Positions 14,159-61,560 of a stretch of DNA of 64,000 nucleotides are shown here, in pieces. Origin of the DNA: a virus (taxonomy: Duplodnaviria; Caudoviricetes); IMG/VR virus record IMGVR_UViG_2713897221_000004, positions 1 to 64,000 of that record, one strand, 5' to 3'. How positions within the stretch are numbered: the first letter of the stretch is position 1; every line of letters begins with the position of its first letter. A program made the translations under genes and the position numbers. A model generated the notes under the pieces. The model was not told the DNA's origin. It ran no database searches and saw nothing but the letters and a program-made list of their open reading frames with translations.

Positions 14159-14172
14159 TTGCGTAGCTCCTC

Positions 14173-14242
14173 ATGCATCACCGTTGTGCACAACCACAAT
14201 ATAGAACCGTGATGCATTGCCGTCAATACCACGGTGATGCAT
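14173..14242. promoter_or_regulatory. Pant-like promoter with operator repeats
   Basis: Minus-strand TTGACG-N17-TATATT (14226-14198). ACGGTGATGCAT at 14231-14242, its inverse at 14173-14184 and a 1-mismatch copy at 14206-14217. Confidence 0.7.
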
Positions 14243-27007: not shown

Positions 27008-27083
27008 TTTGGCTTTCTCCACAAAAAAAGCCCGCTCAAAGGCGGGCATTGATTACTTGCCGGGCAAACCCCGGCGGCTTTGG

Positions 27084-41357: not shown

Positions 41358-41405
41358 CAAGCATGCTTGTGTTTGCAAAACAAGCATGCTTGACAAGCAC
41401 TCTTG
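41358..41405. promoter_or_regulatory. OR operators (3 sites)
   Basis: CAAGCATGCTTG at 41358 and 41381; CAAGCACTCTTG at 41394. Confidence 0.8.
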
Positions 41406-41417
41406 TAGATTGCAGCC

Positions 41418-42275
41418 ATGAAAACCACTGAACGAATCACCAAGCTGGTAATGGCCCGAAAGCCAGCCATTGGCGTGCGCAACGTTAAGCGCGATATCGC
41501 AACCACGTGCGGCATCAGCTATGAGGCTGTGCGCCAGTGGTTTGCCGGCGATACCGAGAACATTAAGAACGAGAACCTGGTGGCGATCTCTGAGGGCTAC
41601 GACACTACTGTCGATTGGCTGCTATCAGGCAAAGGTGAGCCACCAAGAAGAAAAGAATCGGCGACAGCAACTGGCGATTCGGCAGGCAACTCCAGCGCAG
41701 CTGACCTGGTCCAGAAGATGCTGGAAAAACACGGAAAAGGCTTGCCTGAAGAAGCTCGCCAGAAGATCGTTGACGCTGTCGCAGATGGGGCAGCAAATGG
41801 CCAAGCTGGAAACGTAATCTCTGCCGACTTTTCCGGGCGCCGCCTGCAACCTGGTGATATTTCTATCCCGCAATACGACATCCGCGGCGCCATGGGCCAT
41901 GGCCAGGTACCGGCTGAATACTCCGAAGCAATCAGGAACGTTGTTATCAGCGAGGATGTGCTGCGCGATAAAGGTATCCAGTACTCGACCGCGGCCAGTC
42001 TCGCGATGATTACCGGCTGGGGCCAGAGCATGGAGGGCACGATCAACGACAAGGACCCTGTCATCGTCGATCGAGGCATCAGTGAATTTGCAGGTGACGG
42101 CGTGTACGTCATCACCTGGCATGACCTGCTCTACATCAAGCGGCTCCAGGTGCATGACGCCGATCATTTCGAAATGATCTCGGACAACCCGAAGCACAAG
42201 GACCGAGTCGTCCCGATTGGCGATGTGATCATCCACGCCAAGGTGCTGCTGGTCTGGAATGCTCGGAAGCTTTGA
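41418..42275 (+). CDS. cI: CI-like repressor (HTH + S24 peptidase)
   Basis: SYEAVRQW HTH; GQSMEG and IKRL catalytic Ser/Lys motifs. Confidence 0.93.
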   Translation: MKTTERITKLVMARKPAIGVRNVKRDIATTCGISYEAVRQWFAGDTENIKNENLVAISEGYDTTVDWLLSGKGEPPRRKESATATGDSAGNSSAADLVQKMLEKHGKGLPEEARQKIVDAVADGAANGQAGNVISADFSGRRLQPGDISIPQYDIRGAMGHGQVPAEYSEAIRNVVISEDVLRDKGIQYSTAASLAMITGWGQSMEGTINDKDPVIVDRGISEFAGDGVYVITWHDLLYIKRLQVHDADHFEMISDNPKHKDRVVPIGDVIIHAKVLLVWNARKL

Positions 42276-42797: not shown

Positions 42798-43220
42798 GTG
42801 TACGAACTGATCGTGAGCGACGATGCTACTGCCGATCTGGAAAGGTTACTGCAAGAGAATCGCGTGGTTGCCTTGAGGGTCATCGCCCTCCTGGAACAGC
42901 TTTCTTGCGACCAAGACCTTCTCGACAGGCTTACACAAGACGGGTATGGGGGCTCCCCCAAGCATCCGATCAGGGGCGCCGTAATCAATATCGGCAAATG
43001 GATTAGCGCTCAGAGAAAAGGACTGAACCTTTGGCGGATGCGAGATTTCGAGCTATCCAGAAAAGGGTACGAGTACCGAATTATCTATGCATTCAACCCC
43101 TCTAAGGATCAGTACCTCGTCCTTGCGGTCGTTGAGAGAGAATTTGATTATGACGAAAGCCATCCTATTACGCAGCGCATCTATGCAGCCTATAACGAGC
43201 TTGATGACGACCAGTGGTGA
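42798..43220 (+). CDS. RelE/ParE/HigB-like toxin
   Basis: A..DLE.L start, LWRMR...YRIIY...VLAV pattern. Confidence 0.7.
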   Translation: MYELIVSDDATADLERLLQENRVVALRVIALLEQLSCDQDLLDRLTQDGYGGSPKHPIRGAVINIGKWISAQRKGLNLWRMRDFELSRKGYEYRIIYAFNPSKDQYLVLAVVEREFDYDESHPITQRIYAAYNELDDDQW

Positions 43221-43635
43221 GGCTCTGACTAGTGTGCCTCTCACGGGCGTTGTCGTTCAGTTCTCTGCCTCCTTTCCGCCTGCCCCGCTTGCAAAAAAGA
43301 ACTCGGCTTTTGCCGGGCTTTTAGGGCGCATTGAGACTGATAGTTCTCTGAATGAGGAGCTGAGGAGGGCCAGAGCCTCGGTTGCTGACGAGTTTTACGA
43401 CGAAGAGGGAGAGACTATAAAAAGCCTCCGCCTCAAGAATGGATGGAGTCAGCAGAAGTTTTCCGAGCTGTTGGGAACGACGCAGGCTCAGGTTGCACGC
43501 CTCGAAAAGGGCAATATAGACCCGCATCGGTCCACCTGTAAGCGACTTCGCCAGGTTCTTAACATCTCGGCAGAGAAGCTAGAAGAGATAATGGACAGAC
43601 AAGAACGGCTATTTGAATCTCGGACGACCAAATGA
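43204..43635 (+). CDS. HigA-like XRE HTH antitoxin
   Basis: LRLKNGWSQQKFSELLGTTQAQVARLEKG. Confidence 0.8.
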   Translation: MTTSGEALTSVPLTGVVVQFSASFPPAPLAKKNSAFAGLLGRIETDSSLNEELRRARASVADEFYDEEGETIKSLRLKNGWSQQKFSELLGTTQAQVARLEKGNIDPHRSTCKRLRQVLNISAEKLEEIMDRQERLFESRTTK

Positions 43636-44066
43636 ACCGCTACACATACTCCATTTTTTGTGACGATATCCGCAATGAAGTGAATGGTAAGACCTCCCTG
43701 ATCGGCGTTGTCGGAGGCCTGTTGTACGTAAACACTTTTCCTTGTGTTATTCCAAAACTTTGCGTCCTCATCACTGCAGTGACGGATCACGATAATCCTT
43801 TCAAGAGTCTCACTTTCAAGGTTCTGGTCGGCGAAGACCCAGCATTTGACGTAACCCTGGGAGAAGATGAAATTCAGAAAATCTCGCAGGGACAAGAGCT
43901 CATTGAGGATCCAAAGGGGTTTGCAGCACAGGCAGTAGTTGTCATGTCCCCGCTCAGCCTTCAAGGTCCAAGTACAATCAAAGTTTTTGTCGTGGCTGAT
44001 GGGGAAAAGCTTGACTGTGCCTCTCTTCAGATTTCCTTGGCCCCAGAAGGCGCCATTCTTGGATAA
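43632..44066 (+). CDS. DUF6941-like beta-rich protein
   Basis: IFCDDIRNEVNGKTSLIGV; ATGA-coupled to the antitoxin. Confidence 0.65.
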   Translation: MNRYTYSIFCDDIRNEVNGKTSLIGVVGGLLYVNTFPCVIPKLCVLITAVTDHDNPFKSLTFKVLVGEDPAFDVTLGEDEIQKISQGQELIEDPKGFAAQAVVVMSPLSLQGPSTIKVFVVADGEKLDCASLQISLAPEGAILG

Positions 44067-44084
44067 GAAATTTACCTAACATAT

Positions 44085-44112
44085 GCCCGGCCCAGCGCCG
44101 GGCTTTTTGTTT
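44085..44112 (+). terminator. Rho-independent terminator
   Basis: GCCCGGC-CCAGC-GCCGGGC followed by TTTTTGTTT. Confidence 0.75.
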
Positions 44113-44137
44113 CCGCCCATTACTGCTGGATCAGCGA

Positions 44138-44965
44138 CTATGCCTTACCGCCGTATCGCTGCCAGGCAAGCACAATTTCCTTCATCGCGTTTTTCTGCGA
44201 TTCCGGCAGAACGAAGTCATGGTAATACTGACGACCGTCGTAGCGAATTACGACTTTCTTGGCTGCAATGATCTTGTTCAGCATGGCCATGTCCTTGACT
44301 CTTGAATCTGACCATTCCCAAATGCTTCCCGCTCCATTGTCACGCTCAAAATCCATATTTCCCAGGTTGAAGACTTGATCATCTGCCTTGATGGTCACGC
44401 TTTTGACGAAGAGCCAGCTGTCTGCGTAATAGTTGAATTTCATCCGCAGCGGATATTGAGATGCTGATCCATCCTTTGTTCCGAAATACAGCGACATGTA
44501 GTTGTCCAGCACCGGTTCTGACTTGTGGGAAATCCATGTCACCCCTTCTATTTCGTCCGTATTCTTCCGCAGATTCGCATCAAGACGGGTGATAACCTGC
44601 TTCTGCTCTTCCGCCGCCCTAGCTGCTTCTAGCTGTTTTGCTTTTTCGGCAGCTTTAATCTTGGTGTTTACGTCGCTTAGCACAGATTTTGCACTCAGAG
44701 CCTGCTGGGACTCTGGGTAACGAGCAATCAAATCAGTAAGCGTCTGCTTTGCTGAGTCCAGAGCCGGCTGAGAAACTTCGTTCTTCGCCCTAGCCAACAA
44801 CCGATCCGGACCATTTCGCTCAGCCTCCAACTCTGCACGAAGGGTACTGATCTCCCCCTGGAGCTTGCTCACTTCTTGCTGAAGCCTTGCGGCGTTCTCT
44901 TTATCGGCCTGACCGCAAGCCGTAAGTGACACTGCAAACCCTAGCGCTACAAAAAATTTATTCAT
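44138..44965 (-). CDS. Lipoprotein with coiled coil
   Basis: Lipobox LTAC; 275 aa. Confidence 0.8.
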   Translation of the reverse strand: MNKFFVALGFAVSLTACGQADKENAARLQQEVSKLQGEISTLRAELEAERNGPDRLLARAKNEVSQPALDSAKQTLTDLIARYPESQQALSAKSVLSDVNTKIKAAEKAKQLEAARAAEEQKQVITRLDANLRKNTDEIEGVTWISHKSEPVLDNYMSLYFGTKDGSASQYPLRMKFNYYADSWLFVKSVTIKADDQVFNLGNMDFERDNGAGSIWEWSDSRVKDMAMLNKIIAAKKVVIRYDGRQYYHDFVLPESQKNAMKEIVLAWQRYGGKA

Positions 44966-45048
44966 GAGTTCCTTCTCCGTGTAAGTCACCATATCCTACC
45001 AAAGTGCCACTACGTCGCCCGCTACTGAGCGGGCTTTTTGTGACCAGG

Positions 45049-45415: not shown

Positions 45416-45470
45416 CAAGTTTGCTTGCATTAAAAACACAAGCATGCTTTTATAAATGCAAGTCCACTTG
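45416..45470. promoter_or_regulatory. OL operators / PL region
   Basis: CAAGTTTGCTTG at 45416, CAAGCATGCTTT at 45439 and CAAGTCCACTTG at 45459. The first two are 23 bp apart, as in OR. Confidence 0.75.
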
Positions 45471-45509: not shown

Positions 45510-45826
45510 GCTCCACCCCTTGCCGGATCGACACCGGCGGCAACAGAAAGGTTTAGCGAGGTCGAGCCTCAATTCGACCCACGGGTAAAAGCGATCAGTG
45601 ATCGTGCCTCGACCCGGCCGGAGCAGCCTAGATCCGTGCAGAAACAAGAGTGCAGTCGGGAAGAACCGCGGACTGCTGAACAACTTGAAGGGCCTGTACC
45701 GCGCCAGTAGCGCCGAAGGGCAAGGATGGCGCCCTGCCTGATTCAGGGCGCCCTCTGGTTTCACAAATGCCTCTCCTACCCCGGGAGGCATTCGGAAGCC
45801 AAACAACCGCCCTGGAGGGCAACACG

Positions 45827-46045
45827 ATGTTCAACATGGCAACCATGGCGGCTGAAGAATGCCGCGAAGACAAAGCAGATCGCGCCTATTACAGCTGGCT
45901 TTCCAAGGTGGAAAAGCTCATCGGCCATTTCATCGAGCTTGGATCGCAGGAAGAGAGCGACTTTGGCGACTTTCACCGCGAGGGTCTAACCCCGGCTGAA
46001 GCTGTAACGGAGATGAAGGCCCAGCTGGCACAGATCACGGCATGA
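45827..46045 (+). CDS. Hypothetical early protein
   Basis: GGAGG RBS then MFNMATMAAEEC. Confidence 0.7.
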   Translation: MFNMATMAAEECREDKADRAYYSWLSKVEKLIGHFIELGSQEESDFGDFHREGLTPAEAVTEMKAQLAQITA

Positions 46046-46293: not shown

Positions 46294-46359
46294 CGATTTC
46301 ACTCGCAGCCATTCCCACGAGTGGCTGCTGGGAAACAAACCGCCCTGGAGGGCAACGCC

Positions 46360-46494
46360 ATGTTCTCTCTCTTCATCTTCTTCCGCTTCATGCTTCGAGA
46401 CAGCAAGCCAGCCGCTTTCAAGCCGATGTACGTGCAGACCTGGCCTGATGAAGTGCCGGGCTACCCAGCGTCTGATTTTGTTAAGAACCTGTAA
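46360..46494 (+). CDS. Hypothetical 44-aa protein
   Basis: Same RBS leader as the 45827 gene; MFSLFIFFRFMLRDSK... Confidence 0.5.
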   Translation: MFSLFIFFRFMLRDSKPAAFKPMYVQTWPDEVPGYPASDFVKNL

Positions 46495-46522: not shown

Positions 46523-47002
46523 ATGAACGCACAACAGCAACTCACCCCGCCGGCCATCGGCGAAGTTTGGCCAGGCCAAGGCGGTATCTATGGCGGCCTT
46601 CGCCAGTATCCCGAAGGTATGTGTCATGTGATCTTCGCCACTGAAGACGTTGGTCGCCACGCTTACGGCGATTACGGCATATCGACTGAAGCCACCAGCC
46701 GCACCGACGGCCGCGCCAACACGGCAATCCTGATCGCTCGCACTGGCAAGCACCCTGCGGCCATCGCTGCAGCTGCTTACACAGCCGATGGTCACGCCGA
46801 CTTCTACCTGCCGGCGATTGGCGAGCTGCACCACGGCTGGCAGTACGCTCCTGAGTCGTTCAGTGAAGAGTGGTACTACCTGTCGAGTTCGCAGTACTCA
46901 GCCTACGGCGCCTACCTCATGGGCTTCGAAGATGGCTGGCTCCACGGCGACGACAAGACCAACGAGCGCGTGGTGCGCCCTGTCCGCAGATTCCTTCAGT
47001 AA
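46523..47002 (+). CDS. DGR target protein 1 (remote; DUF1566/CLec-like)
   Basis: C-terminal VR; PAIGEVWPGQGG, GHADFYLP, YLSSSQ and VRPVRR motifs. Confidence 0.92.
   Translation: MNAQQQLTPPAIGEVWPGQGGIYGGLRQYPEGMCHVIFATEDVGRHAYGDYGISTEATSRTDGRANTAILIARTGKHPAAIAAAAYTADGHADFYLPAIGELHHGWQYAPESFSEEWYYLSSSQYSAYGAYLMGFEDGWLHGDDKTNERVVRPVRRFLQ
46890..46990 (+). repeat. DGR variable repeat VR1
   Basis: 101-nt ungapped match to the TR with 11 mismatches, all at TR adenines. Confidence 0.97.
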
Positions 47003-47019
47003 TTCATTCCTTCAATTTC

Positions 47020-47371
47020 CCTGACAGCCGGAAAGACGGCCCGATCACCTCGAAAGAGGCTGCATCGGAGTGTGAACTTGGACCTGATGAACTCCTGTCG
47101 GCTCACAGAACGAGCGAAGCAGGTTAGACAGAGTGGCGATGAGCTCCCGTTCAATGTCGTCAAGTTCACACCCCGATGCGGATGAATGCCCAAGCTGATG
47201 GGCAAGTGTAAGACCTGAGGGATCGCGGGAATCGTGGCCGGTAGAGTGAGTAAGCGCCCAGATGGCCACGGCGAGTCCAAGAATAAGCGGCTGAAACCTT
47301 CGCCCCGGTGAAACTCCGGTGTCACTAAGGCCGCTAATAGTCATGCCGGGATCAGCTCCGGTCATCTGCAT
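47020..47371 (+). ncRNA. Putative structured RNA region
   Basis: 19-bp inverted repeat 47062-47080/47161-47179, 11-bp stem 47175-47185/47361-47371 and several inner hairpins; no convincing ORF. Confidence 0.5.
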
Positions 47372-47738: not shown

Positions 47739-48305
47739 ATGAAAACTTTTACCCCCGAACAACTCTCCGAAATCCTCGGTAAACACAAGTTGTGGCTGGA
47801 CGATGGAGAGGGTGGCGAGCGCGCCGACCTGCGCGGTGCCAACCTGGGCGATGCCGACCTGCGCGGTGCCAACCTGCGCGGTGCCAACCTGCGCGGTGCC
47901 AACCTGGGCGATGCCAACCTGGGCGATGCCGACCTGCGCGGTGCCAACCTGCGCGGTGCCAACCTGCGCGGTGCCAACCTGGGCGATGCCGACCTGCGCG
48001 GTGCCTACCTGGGCGAAGTCAGAAACCTGAATGGCGCTACCGGCAACCGCAGGGAGATCAAGGCTATTCAATGCGACCTCTGGCCGGTCACGTACACCGC
48101 GGAACGCATGCAGATCGGTTGCCAGTTCCACGCGCTGGCCGAATGGTGGGCATTCACCGATGAGGAAATCGCCGACATGGATAGCCAAGCGCTGGCTTGG
48201 TGGAAGGTCTGGAAGCCGCTCCTGCAACAGATCATCGAGACGTCGCCGGCAGAGCCAGGCGGCGAGCCGAAACAAGAACCTGCCGAGCCCGAAAATGCCG
48301 CATAA
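47739..48305 (+). CDS. Pentapeptide repeat protein
   Basis: Tandem A(D/N)L(R/G)(G/D) repeats encoded by 15-nt units at ~47823-48015. Confidence 0.9.
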
Positions 48306-49471: not shown

Positions 49472-50575
49472 GTGTCCGCACAACAGCAAGTCATCAAGAT
49501 CGACGACATTAGCGAAGAAAACGCACCGGCCATCTATGTCGCCGGCGGCCTTGGCCAGTTCTTCGACGCGGTAGCCGCTGAGGTCACCGCCGAGGTTCCA
49601 GACCTGACCACTCGCAAAGGCCGCGAGCGCATCGCCTCTCTGGCGGCAAAGGTCAGCAAGTCGAAGACGGCCGTTGAAAAGCCGGGTCGCGACTACCTCA
49701 AGCGCCTGAAGGAAATGCCCAAGGTAGTGGAGGCCGAGCTGCGCGAGTTCGTCAACAAGATGGACGCCCTTCGCGATGCCACCCGCCAGCCTCTGACGGA
49801 CTGGGAGCAAAAAGAACTGGCCAGGACCGACAAGCACATCGACGGCATCCAGAGCATCAAGGACATGGCCAGCTTCGACGAGCCACCGACAGCCGCCCAT
49901 GTCGCCCAGGTCATCGCCGACCTGGAACTGCTGGCTCTCGACGACTCCTGGGAGGAGTTCTTGCCCGAGGCGGCCCAAGCCAAGAATCAAGCGCTGATCA
50001 CGCTGCGCGGCCTGCACGCCGAGCGAGCCCGGCATGAGGCAGAGCAGGCTGAGTTGGCGCGCCTCCGCGAGGAGAAGGAAATGCGCGACAAGAAAGATCG
50101 TGAGGACCAGATCGCTCGGGAAGCCGCTGAGCGCGCTACGCAAGAAGCAGAAGAAAAGGCCCAGCGCGCTCGAGATGCAGAAGCTCAGCGCGTTCGCGAT
50201 GAGCAGGAGGCTGCCGAGAAGCGCGAGAGCGACCTTAAGCTTCAGACGGCAGAAGCTGAGCGCCGCGCTGAACAGGCAAAGCGCGAGCAGGTTGAGGCCG
50301 AACAGAGGGCTGAGCGCGAGCGACTGGAAGGCATCGAACGGCAAGCCGCTGCGGTGGAGCAGGCGCGACTGGATGAGGTCAAGCGCCAGAACGACGCCGC
50401 CGCCGAGATCCTGCGCCAGCAGGAAGCCCGCGAGGCCGATACGGCACACAGAGCCAAGATCAACCGCGCCGCCCTGGCAGCCTTCGTGGCTGGCGGCATG
50501 ACCGAGGAATGCGCCAAGCAGGCAATCACGCTGATCGCCAAGCGCCAGATCCCGAACGTTTCGATTGCCTATTGA
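49472..50575 (+). CDS. Coiled-coil early protein
   Basis: E/A/R-rich helical protein preceding the recombination genes. Confidence 0.8.
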   Translation: MSAQQQVIKIDDISEENAPAIYVAGGLGQFFDAVAAEVTAEVPDLTTRKGRERIASLAAKVSKSKTAVEKPGRDYLKRLKEMPKVVEAELREFVNKMDALRDATRQPLTDWEQKELARTDKHIDGIQSIKDMASFDEPPTAAHVAQVIADLELLALDDSWEEFLPEAAQAKNQALITLRGLHAERARHEAEQAELARLREEKEMRDKKDREDQIAREAAERATQEAEEKAQRARDAEAQRVRDEQEAAEKRESDLKLQTAEAERRAEQAKREQVEAEQRAERERLEGIERQAAAVEQARLDEVKRQNDAAAEILRQQEAREADTAHRAKINRAALAAFVAGGMTEECAKQAITLIAKRQIPNVSIAY

Positions 50576-50582
50576 GGTCGCC

Positions 50583-51392
50583 ATGAGCAATACAGCACTT
50601 GCCGAGAAATCTGACGCTCGGCAGATCGCCTCCCCGGCGATCACCAGCGAGTCAACCGCAATGCTGACCATGATTCAGCGTGCCGCCACTGACCCCGCCT
50701 TCGACGCGGACAAGATGCAGAAGATGATGGAGATGTACGAACGGCACACCGATCGTACTGCTGCAGCAGCATTCAACGCGGCGATGGTTAGAGCTCAGGC
50801 CGAGATCGGCCCCGTATTCCGCGACAAGTTCAACGCACAGACGAACAGCGCTTATGCCGCGCTTGAATCGATTGACCGGAAAATATCGCCGGTCTACACG
50901 GCTTACGGCTTCTCACTGTCATTCGGCACTGGAGACAGTCCGCTGGCCGGCCACATCCGCACGGTATGCGACTGCATGCATGAGGCTGGCCACACGAAGC
51001 AGTACCACGTCGATCTTCCGATTGACTCGGCCGGCATCAAGGGCAGCGTGAACAAGACAGGCGTTCACGCCAGCGGCTCGACATACAGCTACGCCCGGCG
51101 CTATCTGACGATGATGATCTTCAATGTCGTCCTGACCAATGAGGATAACGACGGGAATGGAGATCAAACACAGGGTCTTGGCGAGCTCCTAAACGAGTGG
51201 ATACCAAAGGCCTACGCCGCCGAGTCGAAAGAGGCTCTGACGGCTATCTGGCAAGCAGGCGTCCAGGCCTCCCAGGACCTGAAAGCTACCGACAAAAAAA
51301 CGGCAACCGACCTCTATGAAGCATTGAAGGTTGCGGTCACCACTCGCGGGCAGCAGCTTAGCGCCCCCGCTCAAGAAGGAGCCGACCAATGA
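50583..51392 (+). CDS. ERF-family ssDNA annealing protein
   Basis: YAALESI and GSTYSYARRY motifs. Confidence 0.88.
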   Translation: MSNTALAEKSDARQIASPAITSESTAMLTMIQRAATDPAFDADKMQKMMEMYERHTDRTAAAAFNAAMVRAQAEIGPVFRDKFNAQTNSAYAALESIDRKISPVYTAYGFSLSFGTGDSPLAGHIRTVCDCMHEAGHTKQYHVDLPIDSAGIKGSVNKTGVHASGSTYSYARRYLTMMIFNVVLTNEDNDGNGDQTQGLGELLNEWIPKAYAAESKEALTAIWQAGVQASQDLKATDKKTATDLYEALKVAVTTRGQQLSAPAQEGADQ

Positions 51393-52033
51393 TCATCGTT
51401 CACTGCTCTCAAGGATCAGACGCCTGGCATCAGGAAAGAGCCGGCGTCATCACAGCAAGCATGTTCAGCGACGCCCGCGCCCGGCTGAAGTCAGGCCCCA
51501 ACAAGGGCGAGCCGACCGCCAAGGCCTTGGACTATGCCTTCCGTCTGGCCGTTGAGCGTATCAGCGGCTCCCCGCTGGATGGTGGATTCGAAACCTGGCA
51601 GATGAAGCGTGGCCACGAACTGGAGCCCGAGGCCCGCATGGAGCACGAAATCCAGACAGGGCTGATCGTCACTCAGGTTGGATTGGTTAAAACCGATGAT
51701 GGCGTGTTCGGCGCCAGTGCCGACGGCTTCATTGGCGAGGATGGCGGGTCTGAGTACAAATGCTTCTTGGCGCCGGAAAAGCTGCGATCCTTCCACATCG
51801 ACAATGACGCCAGCGACATCATGGACCAAGTGCAAGGCTGTATGTGGATCACCGGCCGCAAGTGGTGGCATATCGGGATGTACTGCCCAGACCTTAAGCC
51901 AGTCGGCCGCCAGCTCTGGTGGCAGGAGTTTAAGCGCGACGAGGACTACATCGAAAAGCTCGAGGAAGACCTGTGGCAGTTCAAGCTGCTGGTCGATCAG
52001 TACGAGGCCAAGCTGAGGAGTAAGGCAGCATGA
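51389..52033 (+). CDS. YqaJ/lambda-exonuclease family protein
   Basis: QGS..W...R.G.ITAS, GHELEP, ASADG, EYKC and QVQG motifs. Confidence 0.92.
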   Translation: MIIVHCSQGSDAWHQERAGVITASMFSDARARLKSGPNKGEPTAKALDYAFRLAVERISGSPLDGGFETWQMKRGHELEPEARMEHEIQTGLIVTQVGLVKTDDGVFGASADGFIGEDGGSEYKCFLAPEKLRSFHIDNDASDIMDQVQGCMWITGRKWWHIGMYCPDLKPVGRQLWWQEFKRDEDYIEKLEEDLWQFKLLVDQYEAKLRSKAA

Positions 52034-52808: not shown

Positions 52809-53120
52809 ATGGCCAAGAGCAATGCGGAACGCTCAGCAAAGACCGCGGCGAAGCGAAAGAGCCGCGGCGAAGAGGAATTGCGACTCCATACACTGGCCGG
52901 AACCCGCCAGGCCCTGGCCGACCTGATGGACTGGAACGGTATTGAGGAGCAGGGCGAGGCCATGACTCTGATGATTCACCATCTGCACGGCCTGGGCCCT
53001 GCTGGATCAGCTCAGTTCCTTTCAGCTCCGCGACACGAAATCACGATAAGCGAAAACGTGTCGCGCAAATTGCAACTCGCCTACAACCGCGAATCCCTTC
53101 GCATCTGTCACGACGAATAA
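52809..53120 (+). CDS. Hypothetical protein (possible DNA-binding)
   Basis: MAKSNAERSAK...EELRL. Confidence 0.7.
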   Translation: MAKSNAERSAKTAAKRKSRGEEELRLHTLAGTRQALADLMDWNGIEEQGEAMTLMIHHLHGLGPAGSAQFLSAPRHEITISENVSRKLQLAYNRESLRICHDE

Positions 53121-53178
53121 CCCCTACCCCACGCTGCGCATCCGGTCCCGGAGGGCGGCGCACACCTGGAGAAACACC

Positions 53179-53655
53179 ATGACCCAAGTTGCACAGCAAT
53201 TCATCGCCGCCGCGGATCTCCCAGAACGCGGCCAACCTCTCGCCGGCGGCACCTTCTTCACCCGCTACTGGCTCAACGGCGAGGAGCGCGCCCTTGTACT
53301 GCTCGGCGACGAACTCAGCGGCGAGTGGGGCGAATATGGCCTCGACGTTCCTGGCGCCAAGAGCTACAGCGACGGCGAGGCAAACACCCGGGCGATGGCC
53401 GAGGCCGGCAGCAAGATCGCTATCAAGGCCCTGGAACTGGGTGCGCATATCCCTTCCTGCCTGGAGGGCCAGCTGGTTATGGCGGCCAAGGCCGATGGTC
53501 TGGTGACGCTACGCGAGGATCGCTTCCACTGGCTGAGCACGCAGTACTCAGCCCACTGCGCCTACGGCATGGGCTTCGGAGGTGGCTGGCTCGGCTACGG
53601 CGGCAAGGACGACGAGCGCGTGGTGCGCCCTGTCCGCAGCCTTCCAATTCGGTAA
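53179..53655 (+). CDS. DGR target protein 2
   Basis: C-terminal VR; HWLSTQ...VRPVR. Confidence 0.92.
   Translation: MTQVAQQFIAAADLPERGQPLAGGTFFTRYWLNGEERALVLLGDELSGEWGEYGLDVPGAKSYSDGEANTRAMAEAGSKIAIKALELGAHIPSCLEGQLVMAAKADGLVTLREDRFHWLSTQYSAHCAYGMGFGGGWLGYGGKDDERVVRPVRSLPIR
53540..53640 (+). repeat. DGR variable repeat VR2
   Basis: 101 nt with 17 mismatches to the TR, all at TR adenines. Confidence 0.97.
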
Positions 53656-53678
53656 TTCATTCCTTCATTCCTTTTCTT

Positions 53679-53747
53679 GCAGGCGATTCCGGGAGCGTCA
53701 GGACGACGCCCAGACCAGAAGCAAGCCGGGAAGCGCCGGCCGCCTGC
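53679..53747 (+). ncRNA. Structured RNA motif, copy B
   Basis: GCAGGCG/CGCCTGC closing stem with the same internal core as 48313-48376. Confidence 0.55.
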
Positions 53748-53774
53748 ACCCTATTTCGCTCACAGGAGCATCCC

Positions 53775-54362
53775 ATGCAAATGATCACCGTAAGTCACGG
53801 CGAGACCATGCTGACCACTCCGGACGCTGCCCTTGCACTGCAGGTGCTGACCGGGCTGAGCGCTTCCGCAAAGCCGGCCGCGGCACCATCTGGCATCCCA
53901 GCAATCGGCGAATACTGGCCGGGTGAAGGCGGCGTCAACGGCGGCCTGTTCCAGGGCGGCGACCGCCCCTATTACCTGATCGTACCGACGGGCGAAGATG
54001 TCGAAGCCGACCTTGAGTGGGGCGGCTACGGCCAAGAACTCGACGGCGCCAAATCCCCATGGGATGGCCAGGCCAACACCGCTTATCTGGCAAGCAGCAA
54101 CCGAGAGCACGACCACCCTGCCGCCCAGTTCTGCGCCAACTTCGAACGTGATGGACACAAGGACTTCTACCTCATGGCCAGGCGTGAGGCGACCCATCTC
54201 GAAATCACAGTGCCGCACCTGTTCAGCAAGCCTTGGCACTGGACCAGTACGCAGTGCTCAGCCTACGGCGCCTACGACATGGACTTCGAAGATGGCTGGC
54301 TCGACGACGGCGGCAAGGGCAACGAGCGCGTGGTGCGCCCTGTCCGCAGAAAGCTTATTTGA
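53775..54362 (+). CDS. DGR target protein 3 (DUF1566/CLec-like)
   Basis: AGGAG RBS then MQMITVSHG; PAIGEYWPGEGG, GHKDFYL and HWTSTQ...VRPVRR motifs. Confidence 0.92.
   Translation: MQMITVSHGETMLTTPDAALALQVLTGLSASAKPAAAPSGIPAIGEYWPGEGGVNGGLFQGGDRPYYLIVPTGEDVEADLEWGGYGQELDGAKSPWDGQANTAYLASSNREHDHPAAQFCANFERDGHKDFYLMARREATHLEITVPHLFSKPWHWTSTQCSAYGAYDMDFEDGWLDDGGKGNERVVRPVRRKLI
54250..54350 (+). repeat. DGR variable repeat VR3
   Basis: 101 nt with 12 mismatches to the TR, all at TR adenines. Confidence 0.97.
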
Positions 54363-54382
54363 TCCTTCAATGCTTCATTCCT

Positions 54383-54398
54383 GGGCGCCTCGGCGCCC
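54383..54398 (+). promoter_or_regulatory. GC hairpin downstream of VR3 (possible homing cruciform)
   Basis: GGGCGC-CTCG-GCGCCC. Confidence 0.55.
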
Positions 54399-54417
54399 TC
54401 GCTTTTAGGAGGCCAGG

Positions 54418-54771
54418 ATGGCCCTGCATACACAGTTAGAGATCCATAAGGTGGCCGAAGAGTTGTTCGGCATGGCACTCAGCTTGGTTCGCCATATTCC
54501 GCGCGACCTGAAACAGGTTGCCGGCGGCAAGATTCGGGATGTGTGTCTTGAGGTTCTGGTGCTGATCGGTAGAGCGAATATGGCTCGAGACAAGCGCCCG
54601 TATCTCACCGAGGTCATCGAAAACATCTGGATGCTCAACTACCTGTTCAGGGCGTTATCCGAAAACGGCGCCATCAGCCGCGGCCAACATGCCAAAGCGA
54701 TGAAGCTCACGGCCTCCGTAGGCCGACAGGCGAACGCCTGGAAGAAATCCGCAACCGCGCCCGCTGCTTGA
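54418..54771 (+). CDS. avd: Accessory variability determinant (four-helix bundle)
   Basis: 117 aa, basic and helical, IPRD.K...G and VGRQANAWKK motifs; sits between target and TR. Confidence 0.9.
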   Translation: MALHTQLEIHKVAEELFGMALSLVRHIPRDLKQVAGGKIRDVCLEVLVLIGRANMARDKRPYLTEVIENIWMLNYLFRALSENGAISRGQHAKAMKLTASVGRQANAWKKSATAPAA

Positions 54772-54941
54772 GGGTTACGGCTCTCCTGCCTGTGCGCTGA
54801 ATCTGGTCGTGCCGCTGGCCCTTGGGCCACCGCCATGCGCATCAGAGATACCGCCGATCTAAAGCGTTCGGGCTGGTCTCGCGCAGTTTCTCTGCTGATC
54901 GGCATCGCCTTCGGCAGAGCGACGTAGATAGCACGACAGGT

Positions 54942-55042
54942 CGCAGTACTCAGCCAACAACGCCTACAACATGGACTTCGAAGATGGCTGGCTCAACAAC
55001 AACGACAAGAACAACGAGCGCGTGGTGCGCCCTGTCCGCAGA
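54942..55042 (+). ncRNA. DGR template repeat (TR)
   Basis: 31 adenines including 8 AAC codons in the target frame; parent of VR1-VR3. Confidence 0.97.
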
Positions 55043-56141
55043 ATCAAGTGTTGCTCCCTTCCAGTTCGAGGATCTCGTCCAGGCCTACTACGATTGCCGC
55101 CGGCGCAAGCGGAACACCGCAAGCGCCAGGCGATACGAGCAGGACATGGAGATCAACCTGCTGGAGCTTTACGACGACCTGATAGCCGGCACTTACCGGC
55201 CAGGCCGGTCTATCTGTTTCGTCGTGACTCGGCCAAAGGCTCGCGAGGTGTGGGCCGCGGACTTCCGCGACCGGATCGTGCATCACCTGCTGTACAACCA
55301 CATCGGCCCCGCTATCGAGCGCAGCTTCATAGCGGACAGCTGCGCTTGTATCCCCGGTCGCGGCACGCTGTACGCCGCAAAGCGCCTTGAGTCGAAGATA
55401 AGGAGCGCCAGCCAGAACTGGTCGAAGCCGGTCTACTACCTGAAATGCGACCTGGCCAACTTCTTCGTGGCGATCAACAAGCCGGTGCTGCTCGAGCAAC
55501 TGGCCGCCAGGATCACCGAACCCTGGTGGCTGACACTGGCCGAGCAAATCCTGATGCACGATCCGCGGGAGAACTACGAGGTCCGCAGCCCGGCGCACCT
55601 GTTCAACCGGGTGCCGCAGCACAAACGCCTCACTGCGCAGCCTGCACACCTTGGCCTGCCAATCGGCAACCTGTCGTCGCAGTTCTTCGCGAACGTGTAC
55701 CTCGACGCGCTGGACCAGTTCGCGAAGCACACGCTCAATGCGCGCCATTACATCCGCTACGTCGACGACTTCGTATTCCTGCACGAATCGCCGCAGCATT
55801 TGAACGAGTGGTTGGCCCGGGTGGAGGCGTTCCTGCCGAAGCTCGGCGCCAGGCTCAACCCCAGCAAGACCATCCTGCAACCGGTCGACCGCGGCGTCGA
55901 CTTCGTCGGGCATGTCATCAAGCCATGGCGTCGAACAACCCGCAAACGATCTGTGGCCCAGGCGCTGAAGCGAACCGCCGCGGCGCCGGCCGAGGATCTG
56001 CGCGAGACAGCAAACAGCTACTTCGGCCTTCTTGGCCAAGCCAGCCATAGCCAGAAGGACCGGGAGAAGCTGGCCCGGGTCGTCTTGAAGCGTGGTCACG
56101 TCGTCAACGGCGACCTGACCAAGACCTACCCAAAGAAATAA
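54984..56141 (+). CDS. DGR reverse transcriptase
   Basis: FRDRIVHH, DGR-type PIGNLSSQ and YVDD motifs; no maturase or endonuclease tail. Start uncertain; ATG 54984 lies within the TR. Confidence 0.95.
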   Translation: MAGSTTTTRTTSAWCALSAESSVAPFQFEDLVQAYYDCRRRKRNTASARRYEQDMEINLLELYDDLIAGTYRPGRSICFVVTRPKAREVWAADFRDRIVHHLLYNHIGPAIERSFIADSCACIPGRGTLYAAKRLESKIRSASQNWSKPVYYLKCDLANFFVAINKPVLLEQLAARITEPWWLTLAEQILMHDPRENYEVRSPAHLFNRVPQHKRLTAQPAHLGLPIGNLSSQFFANVYLDALDQFAKHTLNARHYIRYVDDFVFLHESPQHLNEWLARVEAFLPKLGARLNPSKTILQPVDRGVDFVGHVIKPWRRTTRKRSVAQALKRTAAAPAEDLRETANSYFGLLGQASHSQKDREKLARVVLKRGHVVNGDLTKTYPKK

Positions 56142-56198
56142 TCCCACTTCAACGAATCACGCCAGTCGGCGAGGCCGGCGCACGCCTGGAGGCCAACA

Positions 56199-56408
56199 AT
56201 GTCTACCCCCCCCCCCATCCGCATCAAGCGGATTGATCTATCGCGCCCTCGCATTCGCCGGCGCGTTCTGCGAGCCCTAAAAAGGAGCTACCAGCTCACC
56301 GGCGGACCGATCAGCAGGGCCTGGCTGTGCACACCTGGAACCCTGACGTTCAGGCTCGGCAACTGGCACGGGCACTACAACGCCAAGAATGAATGGGTGC
56401 CGATATGA
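56199..56408 (+). CDS. Hypothetical basic protein (C11 tract near start)
   Basis: GGAGG RBS. Confidence 0.6.
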   Translation: MSTPPPIRIKRIDLSRPRIRRRVLRALKRSYQLTGGPISRAWLCTPGTLTFRLGNWHGHYNAKNEWVPI

Positions 56409-56637: not shown

Positions 56638-57561
56638 ATGACAACAGCAATCGACCTGTTCGCCGGCCTCGGCGGATGGAGCACAGGCGCACGCGCCGCA
56701 GGCGTCCAAGTTCTCTGGGCGGCAAATCACTGGCCGGCCGCCGTGGAATGGCATAGCGCAAACCACCCTGACACCCAGCACGTTTGCCAGGACTTGCATC
56801 AGGCTCGCTGGGACCAAGTACCAGCTCATGACCTGCTTCTGGCGTCGCCATGCTGCCAGGGGCACAGCCCTGCGCGCGGGAAGGCCAATGGGAACCCACA
56901 GCATGACTCGTCGAGATCTACAGCCTGGGCCGTTGTCTCAGCCTTGGAGTTTCACAGGCCGCAATTCAGCCTCGTTGAAAACGTACCCGAGTTTACGAAC
57001 TGGGCGCTGTATCCGGCTTGGGTGCAGGCCGTCCAGGCCCTGGGCTATCAGGTCGCGCCGCATGTCGTTGATTGCGCTGATCTGGGTGTGCCGCAACACC
57101 GCATCCGTCTGTTCCTGGTGCTCACGCGCAGCCAGGCGCCGCTGATGCTCGAGCTGCACAAGCGACAGCATGTCTCTGCCGCAAGCTTCCTCGACTTCGA
57201 CGCCGGTCGCTGGTCGCTGATCGAGAAGCCGGGGCGGGCTCAGGCAACCCTTGACCGGGTGCGAAACGGCCGCCAGCGCTTCGGCGACCGGTTCATCATG
57301 CCCTACTACGGCAAAGGCTCAGGAACCACCGGCCGCGACATCAAACGACCGATTGGCACCATCACTACCTTGGACCGCTGGGCGCTGGTCGACGGCGGCC
57401 GCATGCGGATGCTCAGCGCTAACGAGGCCCTGGCCGCGCAGTCGTTCCCGGCTGACACCCTACGCCCGGACAACCACCGACTGACCATGCACATGGCTGG
57501 AAATGCAGTGCCGCCCCTGGCGGGGCAGCGAGTTATAGAGGCCTTGTTGAAAGCGGCTTAA
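56638..57561 (+). CDS. DNA cytosine-5 methyltransferase
   Basis: DLFAGLGG, SPCCQ, ENV, Q.R.R and GNAVPP motifs. Confidence 0.93.
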   Translation: MTTAIDLFAGLGGWSTGARAAGVQVLWAANHWPAAVEWHSANHPDTQHVCQDLHQARWDQVPAHDLLLASPCCQGHSPARGKANGNPQHDSSRSTAWAVVSALEFHRPQFSLVENVPEFTNWALYPAWVQAVQALGYQVAPHVVDCADLGVPQHRIRLFLVLTRSQAPLMLELHKRQHVSAASFLDFDAGRWSLIEKPGRAQATLDRVRNGRQRFGDRFIMPYYGKGSGTTGRDIKRPIGTITTLDRWALVDGGRMRMLSANEALAAQSFPADTLRPDNHRLTMHMAGNAVPPLAGQRVIEALLKAA

Positions 57562-60534: not shown

Positions 60535-61560
60535 ATGGGACGTAGACCGACAAAGCCCGGGAGCATATCCCGGCTAAGGGAAAGGAAGCGCGGCAAGCTG
60601 GTGTACTTCACATATGACCTTGGAGGCAAGCCACGCAAAGAGATCTACCTGGGAAAGGACTACGGCGTTGCGATCATGGAGTACGCGCGCCTGGAGCGCG
60701 ACCGTACCGCGACTGCAGCCGCAGCGAAGGTCATCACCTTCCGCTACGTCGCCGAGAAATACCTTGTAGAGGTTGTTCCGACCAAGGGTTCAAACACCCA
60801 GAAGGACAATCTCAGGGAAATGAAGAACCTACTTGCCTTCTTCGATGATCCTCCTGGGCCGCTCGACAACATCGAGCCCATACACATCAGGCAGTATTTG
60901 ACCTGGCGATCCTCGGCGCCAGTTCGTGCCAACCGAGAAAAAGCCCTCCTCAGTGCCATTTGGAACTACGCGCGCGACAAAGGCTACACGGCTCTGGCAA
61001 ACCCCTGTTCTGGAATCAAGGGGAACAAGGAGACAGGTCGAGACACCTACGTTGAGGACGAGCTTCTTAAGCGAGTGTACGACAAGGCAGATGTAGGCCT
61101 GCAGGATGCTTTGGACTTGTTTTATCTGACTGGCCAGCGCATCGCCGACACTCTAAAAATGGACGAGCGAGATATCCGCGAAGGCCGTCTCTCTGTTCAG
61201 CAAGGGAAGACAAAAGCTAAACGACGCATCGAGATCACGGGAGAGTTGAAAGTAGTTCTTGATCGAATCCTGGCGAGAAAGGCTTCCCACAAGGTCCGCT
61301 CGACGCGGCTGATCGTTTTGGAAGATGGCACGCCGATGACGACGGCAATGTTGCGGAGAAGGTTTGACCTGGCCAGAGAAGCCGCTGGAGTGGCCAAGCC
61401 TGAATTCCAGATGAGGGATCTGCGGGCCAAGGCTGGCACAGACAAAGAGGAGTCAAGCGATATCGTCCAGGCCCGCGACCAGCTCGGCCACACAACGGTT
61501 GTCATGACGGAGCATTACATCAGGAATCGAAGGGGGAAGAAGGTTTCGCCAACCAAGTGA
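60535..61560 (+). CDS. int: Tyrosine integrase
   Basis: TGQR, RDLRAK and LGH...MTEHY catalytic motifs. Confidence 0.95.
   Translation: MGRRPTKPGSISRLRERKRGKLVYFTYDLGGKPRKEIYLGKDYGVAIMEYARLERDRTATAAAAKVITFRYVAEKYLVEVVPTKGSNTQKDNLREMKNLLAFFDDPPGPLDNIEPIHIRQYLTWRSSAPVRANREKALLSAIWNYARDKGYTALANPCSGIKGNKETGRDTYVEDELLKRVYDKADVGLQDALDLFYLTGQRIADTLKMDERDIREGRLSVQQGKTKAKRRIEITGELKVVLDRILARKASHKVRSTRLIVLEDGTPMTTAMLRRRFDLAREAAGVAKPEFQMRDLRAKAGTDKEESSDIVQARDQLGHTTVVMTEHYIRNRRGKKVSPTK

What the first reader, a model, noticed from the sequence alone, without database searches (positions are those of the whole stretch)
53179..56141. Three-target DGR that diversifies small early proteins rather than a tail fibre
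Seen: target2-target3-avd-TR-RT, plus a third target at 46523. Each 101-nt VR aligns ungapped to the TR, with 11, 17 and 12 differences that all lie at TR adenines. The three VRs differ from each other, so each was mutagenised independently. The targets are 158-195 aa with no signal peptide, TM segment or virion-attachment domain that I can see, and they sit in the CI-repressed early operon, 36 kb or more from gpJ and the fibre gene. Known: the model phage DGR (Bordetella BPP-1) diversifies the virion tropism protein Mtd through a C-type lectin fold. Inference: this phage makes a family of hypervariable intracellular binders, plausibly an adaptable counter-defence or host-takeover library acting on host or competitor-phage proteins.
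Basis: partly seen in the sequence, partly recalled or inferred. Interest (0 to 1): 0.93.

Follow-up and report, generated by a model that had tools for sequence, protein, structure and literature searches.

The report
Prophage DGR diversifying small early lectin-fold proteins
A Pseudomonas prophage carries an intact mutagenic retroelement that rewrites the tips of three small stand-alone lectin-fold proteins encoded among its early genes rather than in its tail, an arrangement shared by hundreds of related prophages whose purpose nobody has yet tested.

Summary
TR 54942-55042 aligns ungapped to three 101-nt VRs with 11, 17 and 12 mismatches, and all 40 lie at TR adenines. The cassette is complete: bAvd, the Rfam RT-15 RNA abutting the TR, and a DGR-type RT with SQ and YVDD motifs.

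Target T1 folds with high confidence as a single C-type-lectin-like (DUF1566/Lcl-CTD) domain. No target has a signal peptide, TM segment, lipobox or extra domain.

The genes lie in a lambda-like early-left operon. It runs from a duplicated CI-operator pair, past Erf/exonuclease, to the methylase and integrase. gpJ is 36.5 kb away.

The element is not unique. 496 IMG/VR relatives were found. Of 78 checked, 73 have two or three such targets with A-specific mismatches, and none of the 80 loci kept has window-like structural genes within 10 kb. Isolated phages (Cruim01, Haboob, phPA-G, Magia) carry the same cassette, and DGR surveys already list short DUF1566 targets.

The placement in early genes did not appear in the literature I searched. 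The counter-defence role is untested. Rare Arc-fused, DGR-less paralogues favour a cytoplasmic location, whereas the nearest structures are all extracellular adhesins.

The parts
45416..45449 (+). OL-like operator pair (CAAGTTTGCTTG ... CAAGCATGCTT) upstream of the early-left operon. It duplicates the pair at 41358-41391 between the cro-like and cI-like genes.
   Evidence: The cI-like repressor is 41418-42275 (phrog_4, E 2e-38).
46523..47002 (+). Target T1 (159 aa), the remote target. A single C-type-lectin-like / DUF1566 domain.
   Evidence: phrog_4245 E 1e-29. AF2 pLDDT 96.2. Lcl-CTD 8q4e Z 13.6, Foldseek E 4.6e-5.
46890..46990 (+). VR1, 11 mismatches to the TR, all at TR adenines.
53179..53655 (+). 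Target T2 (158 aa), a divergent scaffold (31% identity to T1) with the same VR.
   Evidence: phrog_4245 E 8.5e-23. Identity.
53540..53640 (+). VR2, 17 mismatches to the TR, all at TR adenines.
53775..54362 (+). Target T3 (195 aa), the long form. It has a roughly 40-aa N-terminal extension (strand plus helix, not signal-peptide-like).
   Evidence: phrog_4245 E 7e-29. Start codon. Extension compared across homologues.
54250..54350 (+). VR3, 12 mismatches to the TR, all at TR adenines.
54383..54398 (+). GC hairpin GGGCGCCTCGGCGCCC followed by a T-run, between T3 and the avd RBS. It is kept with compensatory changes in relatives.
54418..54771 (+). avd accessory gene (117 aa).
   Evidence: Pfam bAvd PF22296, 51.6 bits against cut-off 40. 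phrog_3206 'Avd protein of DGR', E 1.6e-26.
54755..54943 (+). RT-15 structured RNA (Rfam RF03018), ending where the TR begins.
   Evidence: 179.5 bits against gathering score 82, E 2e-44, full-length model match.
54942..55042 (+). Template repeat (TR). 31 adenines, nine AAC codons in the target frame.
54984..56141 (+). DGR reverse transcriptase (385 aa from the ATG inside the TR; the open frame runs from TTG 54822). Motifs IGNLSSQ and YVDD.
   Evidence: RVT_1 E 5e-18. phrog_1423 E 2e-116. Translation. The start agrees with the Cruim01 annotation.

Best explanation
This is an intact, canonical diversity-generating retroelement of a very common Pseudomonas/Burkholderia temperate-phage lineage. 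A transcript containing the RT-15 structured RNA and the TR is reverse-transcribed by the Avd-RT complex, with random nucleotides incorporated opposite template adenines. The cDNA then replaces the last 101 nt of homology in three genes, guided by a 26-nt GC-rich block shared by the TR and the VRs. These steps are inferred from the established BPP-1 mechanism. The sequence signature is shown. Each target is one stand-alone C-type-lectin-like (DUF1566/Lcl-CTD-type) domain with about 20 variable codons on its C-terminal strands. The targets are not tail-module genes. They sit in the lambda-pL-like early-left operon between the immunity region and int, and they carry no export signal or virion-attachment domain. 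I therefore read them as cytoplasmic, non-virion binding proteins made early after infection or induction, whose ligand changes fast. The most likely ligand is a protein of the host or of a competing phage. Location and timing are inferred. The ligand is unknown.
For: Signature: 40 of 40 TR/VR mismatches lie at adenines. Parts: bAvd above the Pfam cut-off, RT with SQ and YVDD motifs, and the RT-15 RNA at 179.5 bits. Fold: the T1 model has pLDDT 96.2 and pTM 0.91, and the whole chain (residues 1-157) aligns to Lcl-CTD at Z 13.6. TvpA and Mtd score Z 6.6. Profile A3 hits 8q4e at E 0.0032. No export signal: maximum KD19 is 1.07 or less and there is no lipobox, whereas an in-window lipoprotein control scores positive. 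Stand-alone family: 533 clusters of 87-279 aa against 6 of 280-2000 aa. Context: cI-like repressor, Erf, exonuclease, methylase and integrase all lie on the + strand, the operator pair is duplicated at 41358 and 45416, and gpJ, TMP, capsid, portal and terminase lie on the - strand at 6.5-32 kb. The context is conserved. 0 of 80 related loci have window-like structural genes within 10 kb. Exo (32 of 80), phrog_5439 (38), Erf (23), MTase (20) and Int (15) always lie on the same strand in the same order. The same layout is annotated in Cruim01, Haboob and Magia. Lineage activity: of 78 loci, 55 have two VRs and 18 have three, with 2291 A-site against 35 non-A mismatches in 167 VRs; the scan filter allowed up to 7% non-A mismatches. 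Orthologues differ at 44-48% of TR-A sites, 5-8% of other VR sites and 18-23% of the rest of the gene. Thirteen close T1 orthologues vary almost only in columns 125-150. Cytoplasmic hint: four Pseudomonas genomes encode a continuous Arc (RHH DNA-binding)-CLec fusion about 1 kb downstream of a cI-like gene (seen in L094).
Against: No expression, localisation or virion data exist here. The nearest solved structures are all extracellular adhesins: Lcl, a Bacteroides fimbrial protein, and the Bdellovibrio Bd2740 domain. The wider family includes giant multi-repeat proteins. Pfam Lcl_C is below its cut-off for T1 (19.7 against 34.9 bits) and absent for T2 and T3. The promoter scan found no consensus sigma-70 site at the OL-like operators: 4 sites in 16.5 kb against 5.7 expected, none near 45.4 kb. 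Sixteen runs hold 0.98 of the sampled words of the cassette stretch 53100-56200 (VR2, VR3 and the TR), and the one such strain run that was laid matched at VR1 and VR3. Nothing therefore shows turnover in the lysogen, although contigs cannot show minor variants. An RNA-seq run holds a 166-nt contig over 54795-54960, so the TR RNA may not be silent in culture. The T3 model was poor, with pLDDT 64. The context counts only detect homologues of this window's genes, so most loci score blank for any one marker. The Arc fusions have no DGR within 8 kb.
Confidence: 0.55

Rival explanations
1. The targets are prophage-expressed (lysogenic) proteins. They act either as diversified sensors or decoys that recognise proteins of superinfecting phages (superinfection exclusion or defence), or as ligand-sensing partners of the immunity circuit. 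They are not lytic-cycle counter-defence factors.
For: T1 lies only about 4 kb downstream of cI, in the zone where morons and defence genes sit. That zone holds an HTH/phrog_31406 pair and a lipoprotein. Close T1 paralogues (66-68% identity) are fused to an Arc DNA-binding domain; in L094 the fusion lies about 1 kb downstream of a cI-like repressor. An RNA-seq run of a culture holds a contig over the RT-15/TR junction. A review proposes DGR-based immunity with cytosolic VR proteins (PMC10053308, passages).
Against: No effector domain or partner is evident. There are no PADLOC hits for the targets. T2 and T3 sit deep in the operon, behind the OL-like operators and downstream of the recombination genes. 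The RNA contig is shallow (depth 2.6) and may come from a paralogous prophage.
Confidence: 0.2
2. The targets are virion-associated receptor-binding accessories, small adhesins that dock onto gpJ or the side fibre as T4 gp38 does (recalled). The DGR would then switch host range as in BPP-1, despite the gene position.
For: All characterised phage DGRs diversify tropism proteins (Wu 2018 passages; Roux 2020 sections 7-8). The CLec fold is shared with Mtd (Z 6.6), and the best matches are adhesins. The long-form targets have a conserved N-terminal strand-helix extension of about 45 aa that could be a docking module. The Magia authors suggested a host-range role (PMC7883833, passage).
Against: The genes are 36.5 kb or more from gpJ, on the opposite strand, in the operon with erf, exo, the MTase and int. 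0 of 80 relatives have window-like structural genes within 10 kb. T1 and T2 are a bare CLec domain with nothing to anchor them. Arc-fused paralogues exist. DGR-less copies occupy the same early position in Aurca01.
Confidence: 0.15
3. The cassette is a decayed or currently inactive relic, and the VR differences are old.
For: The cassette stretch (VR2, VR3, TR) is held almost word for word by 16 sequencing runs from several years, and in the one laid run contigs matched VR1 and VR3. No read-level heterogeneity could be seen.
Against: All ORFs are intact and the catalytic YVDD is present. The RT-15 RNA matches the full model. There are no non-A mismatches in 3 x 101 nt. [quoted passage not shown]
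Confidence: 0.05

Closest known systems
Bordetella phage BPP-1 DGR (mtd-avd-TR-brt)
   Same: Target(s)-avd-TR-RT order. Adenine-specific TR-to-VR mismatches. VR at the C-terminus of a C-type-lectin-fold protein. AAC-rich TR. GC-rich 3' homology block. (BPP-1 features from Wu 2018 passages.)
   Different: Mtd is a tail-fibre-tip protein of about 380 aa encoded in the tail module. Here there are three targets of 158-195 aa, each a bare CLec domain of the DUF1566/Lcl type (Mtd only Z 6.6), encoded in the early-left operon. An RT-15 RNA precedes the TR, and the TR overlaps the start of the RT gene.
DGR target category 'd' of Wu et al. 2018 (DUF1566 / CLec2 VRs, exemplified by Legionella LdtA)
   Same: DUF1566-type VR domain. 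The survey notes that about half of this category are short proteins with no other motif (PMC5758913, passages).
   Different: LdtA is a surface lipoprotein. These targets have no lipobox or signal peptide and are phage early-region genes. The survey passages I read do not discuss genomic position within prophages, and its Supplementary Table S1 could not be opened.
Burkholderia phage Magia; Pseudomonas phages Cruim01, Haboob, VB_PaD_phPA-G, LPPA56, SC_8_H2H8_2017; Shewanella phage vB_Sb_QDWS
   Same: RT 65-84% identical. Small target ORFs, Avd and RT lie between the recombination/immunity genes and the methylase/integrase. RT-15 is annotated in Cruim01.
   Different: They are other hosts and other phage backbones (Magia is a myophage). 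Target number differs. Only the Magia note mentions the DGR, reading it as possible host-range adaptation. The Cruim01 and phPA-G papers contain no mention of a DGR or reverse transcriptase.
Legionella Lcl C-terminal domain (PDB 8Q4E)
   Same: Best structural and only significant sequence-profile match. CLec-like fold without disulfides. (PMC11162425 passages.)
   Different: Lcl is a secreted, collagen-stalked trimeric adhesin that binds glycosaminoglycans and is not diversified by a DGR. Identity is 17-19%.
Cellular DGRs with intracellular or regulatory targets (cyanobacteria)
   Same: A precedent for DGR targets that are not surface proteins (PMC7517822, title and abstract start only; Roux 2020 section 8 on the CotH-kinase viral targets).
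   Different: Those targets are large multidomain signalling proteins of cells or a kinase class of viral targets, not bare CLec domains in a temperate-phage early operon.

Membership tests
Diversity-generating retroelement (DGR) | TR/VR pair whose mismatches are restricted to TR adenines | tested here: met
   40 of 40 mismatches in three 101-nt VRs are at adenines.
Diversity-generating retroelement (DGR) | Reverse transcriptase of the DGR clade (RVT_1 domain, SQ dipeptide motif, YxDD) | tested here: met
   RVT_1 E 5e-18. phrog_1423 E 2e-116. IGNLSSQ and YVDD in the translation. The SQ criterion is from PMC3521204, passage.
Diversity-generating retroelement (DGR) | Accessory variability determinant (Avd) | tested here: met
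   Pfam bAvd 51.6 bits against cut-off 40. The NCBIfam DivGenRetAVD model scores only 45.5 against cut-off 80.
Diversity-generating retroelement (DGR) | VR at the 3' end of a target ORF encoding a C-type-lectin fold | tested here: met
   The VRs cover residues 123-156 of 159. CLec fold for T1. T2 and T3 are assigned by homology only, as the T3 model was poor.
Diversity-generating retroelement (DGR) | IMH at the VR versus a non-identical IMH* at the TR, and a downstream DNA hairpin | tested here: inconclusive
   A 26-nt GC-rich block is identical in the TR and the VRs. Homology ends at the same base and the flanks differ. The VR flanks share a T/C-rich motif and GC hairpins that are absent after the TR. 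Folding z-scores are weak, -0.3 to -1.7.
Diversity-generating retroelement (DGR) | Ongoing mutagenic retrohoming | tested here: inconclusive
   Comparative signal is strong. Runs were available only as contigs with identical VRs, and the raw metagenome reads did not cover the locus.
BPP-1-type tropism-switching phage DGR | Target is a tail-fibre or receptor-binding protein encoded in the tail module | tested here: not met
   The targets are in the cI-to-int early-left operon, 36.5 kb or more from gpJ. 0 of 80 relatives have window-like structural genes within 10 kb. T1 is a single domain. Presence in virions could not be tested.
Pfam PF07603 Lcl_C / DUF1566 | Score at or above the Pfam gathering threshold (34.9 bits) | tested here: not met
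   T1 scores 19.7 bits; T2 and T3 have no hit. Many homologues carry PF07603 or the name 'DUF1566 domain-containing protein', and the fold and profile match Lcl-CTD. The targets are therefore divergent members by fold, not by the curated cut-off.
Defence-associated RTs (DRT/UG), retrons, Abi RTs | Score above the family cut-off and the characteristic partner (ncRNA/effector) | tested here: not met
   NCBIfam Drt2-5, retron St85 and AbiA score 23-46 bits against cut-offs of 200-550. PADLOC gives only generic RT-domain overlaps. A TR/VR system is present instead.

The most novel reading that the evidence does not exclude
A whole lineage of temperate phages uses a DGR to keep a repertoire of two or three hypervariable intracellular lectin-fold binders, an antibody-like library made early in infection or from the prophage. 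These binders neutralise or sense fast-evolving host defence or rival-phage proteins. Some DGR-less paralogues are wired directly to DNA binding through an Arc domain.
Probability: 0.3. Interest if true: 0.85.

Novelty: new variant of a known kind. Interest (0 to 1): 0.6.

Why it matters
Phage DGRs are routinely read as host-range switches, and a large survey assumes that unannotated viral targets are unknown structural proteins (Roux 2020 preprint, section 8). Here the targets sit in the early-left operon and have no anchoring domain. The lineage is abundant, with 496 IMG/VR relatives, and Pseudomonas is among the top DGR-bearing genera in two surveys.

If these proteins act inside the cell, DGR-driven diversification would extend to phage-host or phage-phage conflict within the cytoplasm. 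The question is directly testable because isolated phages such as Cruim01, Haboob, phPA-G and Magia carry the same cassette. If instead the proteins turn out to be virion adhesins, that would show that receptor-binding accessories can be encoded far from the tail module.

Tried and rejected
1. Reads for VR heterogeneity. Sixteen runs hold 0.98 of the sampled words. The four runs laid gave only consensus contigs identical at VR1 and VR3 (X17), a few RNA contigs (X18), and almost no reads from two metagenomes. There is no evidence either way on current activity.

2. T3 structure from 60 close homologues. pLDDT was 64 and Foldseek found nothing at E 0.001 or better. A deeper 100-sequence alignment for T1 then folded well.

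5. Megablast of the 9.8-kb region against phages found only short pieces (Erf, exonuclease, pentapeptide repeats) and no close phage.

6. The sigma-70 promoter scan gave no site at the OL-like operators.

7. DNA hairpin folding downstream of the VRs gave z-scores no better than -1.7.

8. PADLOC and NCBIfam gave no hits for the targets.

9. Fused forms: only 6 longer relatives were found, and they were not examined further.

10. Literature. Searches for DGR with DUF1566, Pseudomonas/prophage, anti-defence/early gene, lysogeny/moron/cytoplasmic, for DUF1566 with phage, and for the phage names found no paper that places DGR targets in a phage early operon or assigns a function to phage DUF1566 proteins. 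The library lacks most subscription journals, and supplementary tables (Wu 2018 S1, Roux 2020 S5) could not be opened.

11. A decayed relic and a defence RT or retron were considered and rejected.
Full report
**1. Observation**

The repeat finder returns four copies in register at 46877, 53527, 54237 and 54929. An ungapped comparison fixes the template repeat at 54942-55042 (101 nt, 31 adenines). The variable repeats are at 46890-46990, 53540-53640 and 54250-54350, with 11, 17 and 12 mismatches.

All 40 mismatches are at TR adenines. With 31 of 101 positions being A, 40 of 40 by chance is about 3e-21 (my arithmetic).

The VRs differ from one another at 16, 10 and 12 positions. 28 of the 31 TR adenines fall at codon positions 1 or 2. 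In the target frame the TR holds nine AAC codons and 20 variable codons, roughly 1e16 protein variants per target. Only two of the listed codons, AAG (residue 145) and AGA (156), can mutate to a stop. A 26-nt GC-rich block at the 3' end is identical in the TR and all VRs and occurs only four times in the 100-kb provirus record.

**2. Parts**

- **T1** 46523-47002, 159 aa.
- **T2** 53179-53655, 158 aa.
- **T3** 53775-54362, 195 aa. My calls used 53778, one codon short.
- **avd** 54418-54771. Pfam bAvd scores 51.6 bits against a cut-off of 40, and it matches phrog_3206 'Avd protein of DGR'.
- **RT-15 RNA** (Rfam RF03018) at 54755-54943. It scores 179.5 bits against a gathering score of 82 and ends exactly where the TR begins.
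- **RT** open from TTG 54822, most likely starting at ATG 54984 inside the TR, as annotated in phage Cruim01. It has RVT_1, a phrog_1423 match at E 2e-116, and the IGNLSSQ and YVDD motifs.

Defence-RT, retron and Abi models score far below their cut-offs.

**3. What the targets are**

All three match only the C-terminal third of phrog_4245, a family of unknown function. Pfam Lcl_C/DUF1566 is below threshold for T1 (19.7 against 34.9 bits) and absent for T2 and T3.

Homologues are abundant. 533 clusters of 87-279 aa were found at E 1e-5 or better, mostly named 'DUF1566 domain-containing protein' from Pseudomonas, the closest being from P. chlororaphis. Only 6 relatives of 280-2000 aa were found. 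A profile search of 1.84 billion representatives gives 16,873 hits. These include many small proteins and some giant multi-repeat ones.

A first model of T3 was poor, with pLDDT 64 and no fold match. With a 100-sequence alignment, T1 folds at pLDDT 96.2 and pTM 0.91. The whole chain is one C-type-lectin-like domain:

| Match | Score |
|---|---|
| Legionella Lcl C-terminal domain 8q4e | Z 13.6, Foldseek E 4.6e-5 |
| Bacteroides fimbrial protein 4eps | Z 13.0 |
| Bdellovibrio Bd2740 | Z 10.8 |
| DGR target TvpA | Z 6.6 |
| DGR target Mtd | Z 6.6 |

The family profile also hits 8q4e by sequence at E 0.0032. 8Q4E is the DUF1566 domain of Lcl, which its authors describe as C-type-lectin-like (PMC11162425, passages).

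None of the targets has a hydrophobic stretch (maximum KD19 is 1.07 or less) or a lipobox. A lipoprotein in the same window served as a positive control. The extension of about 45 aa in long-form homologues is a strand-helix element without the features of a signal peptide.

**4. Context**

The window is a lambda-like siphovirus prophage. On the minus strand:

- gpJ 6556-10011
- tape measure 18901-22107
- major head 25859-27049
- portal 29657-31033
- terminase 31036-32367

On the plus strand:

- cI-like repressor 41418-42275
- Erf 50565-51392
- exonuclease 51389-52033
- the DGR
- a C5 methylase 56638-57561
- integrase 60535-61560

The palindromic pair CAAGCATGCTTG lies between the cro-like and cI-like genes at 41358-41391. 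It recurs at 45416-45449, about 300 bp upstream of the first plus-strand early ORF. This is the OR/OL arrangement of lambda (established knowledge). 'CI-repressed early-left operon' is therefore a reasonable inference but is not shown. The consensus promoter scan found nothing there.

**5. Relatives**

The same RT clade (65-84% identity) with small targets and Avd occurs in the following phages:

- Pseudomonas phages Cruim01, SC_8_H2H8_2017, phPA-G, Haboob and LPPA56
- Burkholderia phages Magia, vB_E192a and vB_PL1
- a Shewanella phage

In Cruim01, Haboob and Magia the cassette lies between the immunity/recombination genes and the methylase/integrase. Aurca01, a sister of Cruim01, has three target homologues in the same place but no RT or Avd. 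DGR-less homologues also occur in D3, PMG1 and jumbo phages.

In IMG/VR, 496 stretches encode a relative of the RT. Of the 80 loci kept (81-95% identity), 78 had the TR in range. Among those 78:

| VRs per locus | Loci |
|---|---|
| Two | 55 |
| Three (one remote) | 18 |
| One | 3 |
| None | 2 |

The 167 VRs carry 2291 adenine-site mismatches against 35 others.

None of the 80 loci has a homologue of this window's gpJ, tape measure, capsid, portal or terminase within 10 kb. Exo (32 loci), phrog_5439 (38) and Erf (23) lie upstream, and MTase (20) and Int (15) lie downstream, always on the RT strand. Blanks reflect mosaicism as well as absence.

**6. Activity**

Thirteen close T1 orthologues are nearly identical over residues 1-120 and vary almost only in columns 125-150. 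At the DNA level, orthologues differ as follows:

| Site class | Differing |
|---|---|
| TR-adenine sites | 44-48% |
| Other VR sites | 5-8% |
| Rest of the gene | 18-23% |

This is the pattern expected if the TR keeps overwriting the VR. Q124, M133, K145 and E148 stay fixed despite template adenines, which implies selection on the proteins.

Against this, 16 sequencing runs hold 0.98 of the sampled words of the cassette stretch queried (53100-56200: VR2, VR3 and the TR), and contigs of the one laid strain run are identical at VR1 and VR3. Nothing therefore shows turnover in the lysogen. Contigs cannot show minor variants, and the two raw-read metagenomes did not cover the locus.

One RNA-seq run holds a 166-nt contig (depth 2.6, one difference) over 54795-54960, the RT-15/TR junction, while most of the 13 kb has no RNA contig. 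This is a weak hint that the template RNA accumulates in culture.

**7. Function**

The DGR mechanism itself is inferred from the BPP-1 model. The sequence signature and all parts are shown.

The open question is what the targets bind and where. For a cytoplasmic, non-virion role:

- the operon position, conserved lineage-wide;
- a bare single domain with no export signal;
- four Pseudomonas genomes with a continuous Arc (ribbon-helix-helix DNA-binding, 35-37 bits against a cut-off of 20.4)-CLec fusion, 66-68% identical to T1, with no DGR within 8 kb; in L094 it lies about 1 kb downstream of a cI-like repressor.

Against it:

- the closest folds are all extracellular adhesins;
- every characterised phage DGR diversifies a tropism protein;
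- there are no expression or proteomic data here.

No target matches a known defence or anti-defence model in PADLOC. A lysogen-expressed sensor or exclusion role is about as likely.

**8. Comparison with the literature**

- Wu et al. 2018 define target category 'd' (DUF1566/CLec2 VRs, exemplified by the Legionella lipoprotein LdtA). They note that about half are short DUF1566-only proteins, and they describe non-adjacent targets within prophages (PMC5758913, passages).
- DiGReF lists a two-VR DGR in P. fluorescens WH6 (PMC3521204, passage).
- Yan et al. 2019 and the Roux et al. 2020 preprint both place Pseudomonas among the genera richest in DGRs.
- The Magia genome note reports a DGR with targets in 'relatively short reading frames' and suggests host-range change (PMC7883833, passage).
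- The Cruim01 and phPA-G papers do not mention the element.

Seven searches found no paper that places DGR targets in a phage early operon or assigns a function to phage DUF1566 proteins. The library lacks most subscription journals and the supplementary tables were closed, so this absence is provisional.

**9. Verdict**

The element is an ordinary, intact member of a large and already catalogued DGR lineage. The target biology is a variant that the literature I could search has not addressed: stand-alone lectin-fold proteins in the early-left operon, apparently cytoplasmic. It is directly testable in isolated phages. Interest is 0.6. It would rise to about 0.85 if the intracellular-binder reading holds, which I put at a probability of about 0.3.

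Noticed in passing
window 54755-54943 (+): Rfam RT-15 RNA (RF03018) matches at full length, 179.5 bits, ending exactly at the first base of the TR. The same feature is annotated as misc_RNA in phage Cruim01. It suggests a structured 5' element of the DGR template RNA in this lineage.
   Followed up: partly
window 47000-47020, 53653-53680, 54360-54382; relatives L010-L023: A T/C-rich motif (TAATTCATTCCTTCA-like, or GATCMTTCAATGCTTCATTC after VR3) begins at or just after each target's stop codon. It is conserved in relatives and absent after the TR. GC hairpins with compensatory changes follow it. It may be the target-recognition element of this DGR lineage.
   Followed up: partly
L094 7950-8687; also L095-L097: Continuous ORFs fuse an Arc-like ribbon-helix-helix DNA-binding domain to a T1-like lectin-fold domain, with no RT or Avd within 8 kb. 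In L094 the fusion lies about 1 kb downstream of a cI-like repressor.
   Followed up: partly
L001 (Pseudomonas phage Aurca01) 8992-11541: Three homologues of the DGR targets sit in the same early position as in its sister phage Cruim01, but there is no Avd or RT; a 'RecB'-annotated gene lies between them. This looks like loss (or non-acquisition) of the retroelement with the targets retained.
   Followed up: no
window 47739-48305 (+): A pentapeptide-repeat protein (Pfam PF00805, E 5e-22) is built on a 15-nt tandem repeat, between T1 and the recombination genes. Its repeat DNA is 87-91% identical over about 190 nt to Salmonella and Edwardsiella phage genes annotated as pentapeptide-repeat proteins.
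   Followed up: no
window 43087-44992: Between cI and the OL-like operators lie three genes: an HTH regulator (43087-43635), a phrog_31406 protein (43632-44066), and, on the opposite strand, a lipoprotein with a clear lipobox (44138-44992). This is a moron-like insert in the position of lambda rexAB.
   Followed up: no
window 13068-14174 (-): An Ant-type anti-repressor gene (phrog_245, E 1e-43) is embedded between the tail genes.
   Followed up: no
window 54795-54960: An RNA-seq run of a cultured organism holds a 166-nt contig (depth 2.6, one difference) over the RT-15/TR junction. Most of the surrounding 13 kb has no RNA contig, and the other RNA pieces carry many differences and probably come from paralogous prophages.
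   Followed up: no
window 45805-45832 and 46338-46365: A 28-nt direct repeat (93% identical) contains a short hairpin and an ATG, at the starts of two small early ORFs upstream of T1.
   Followed up: no
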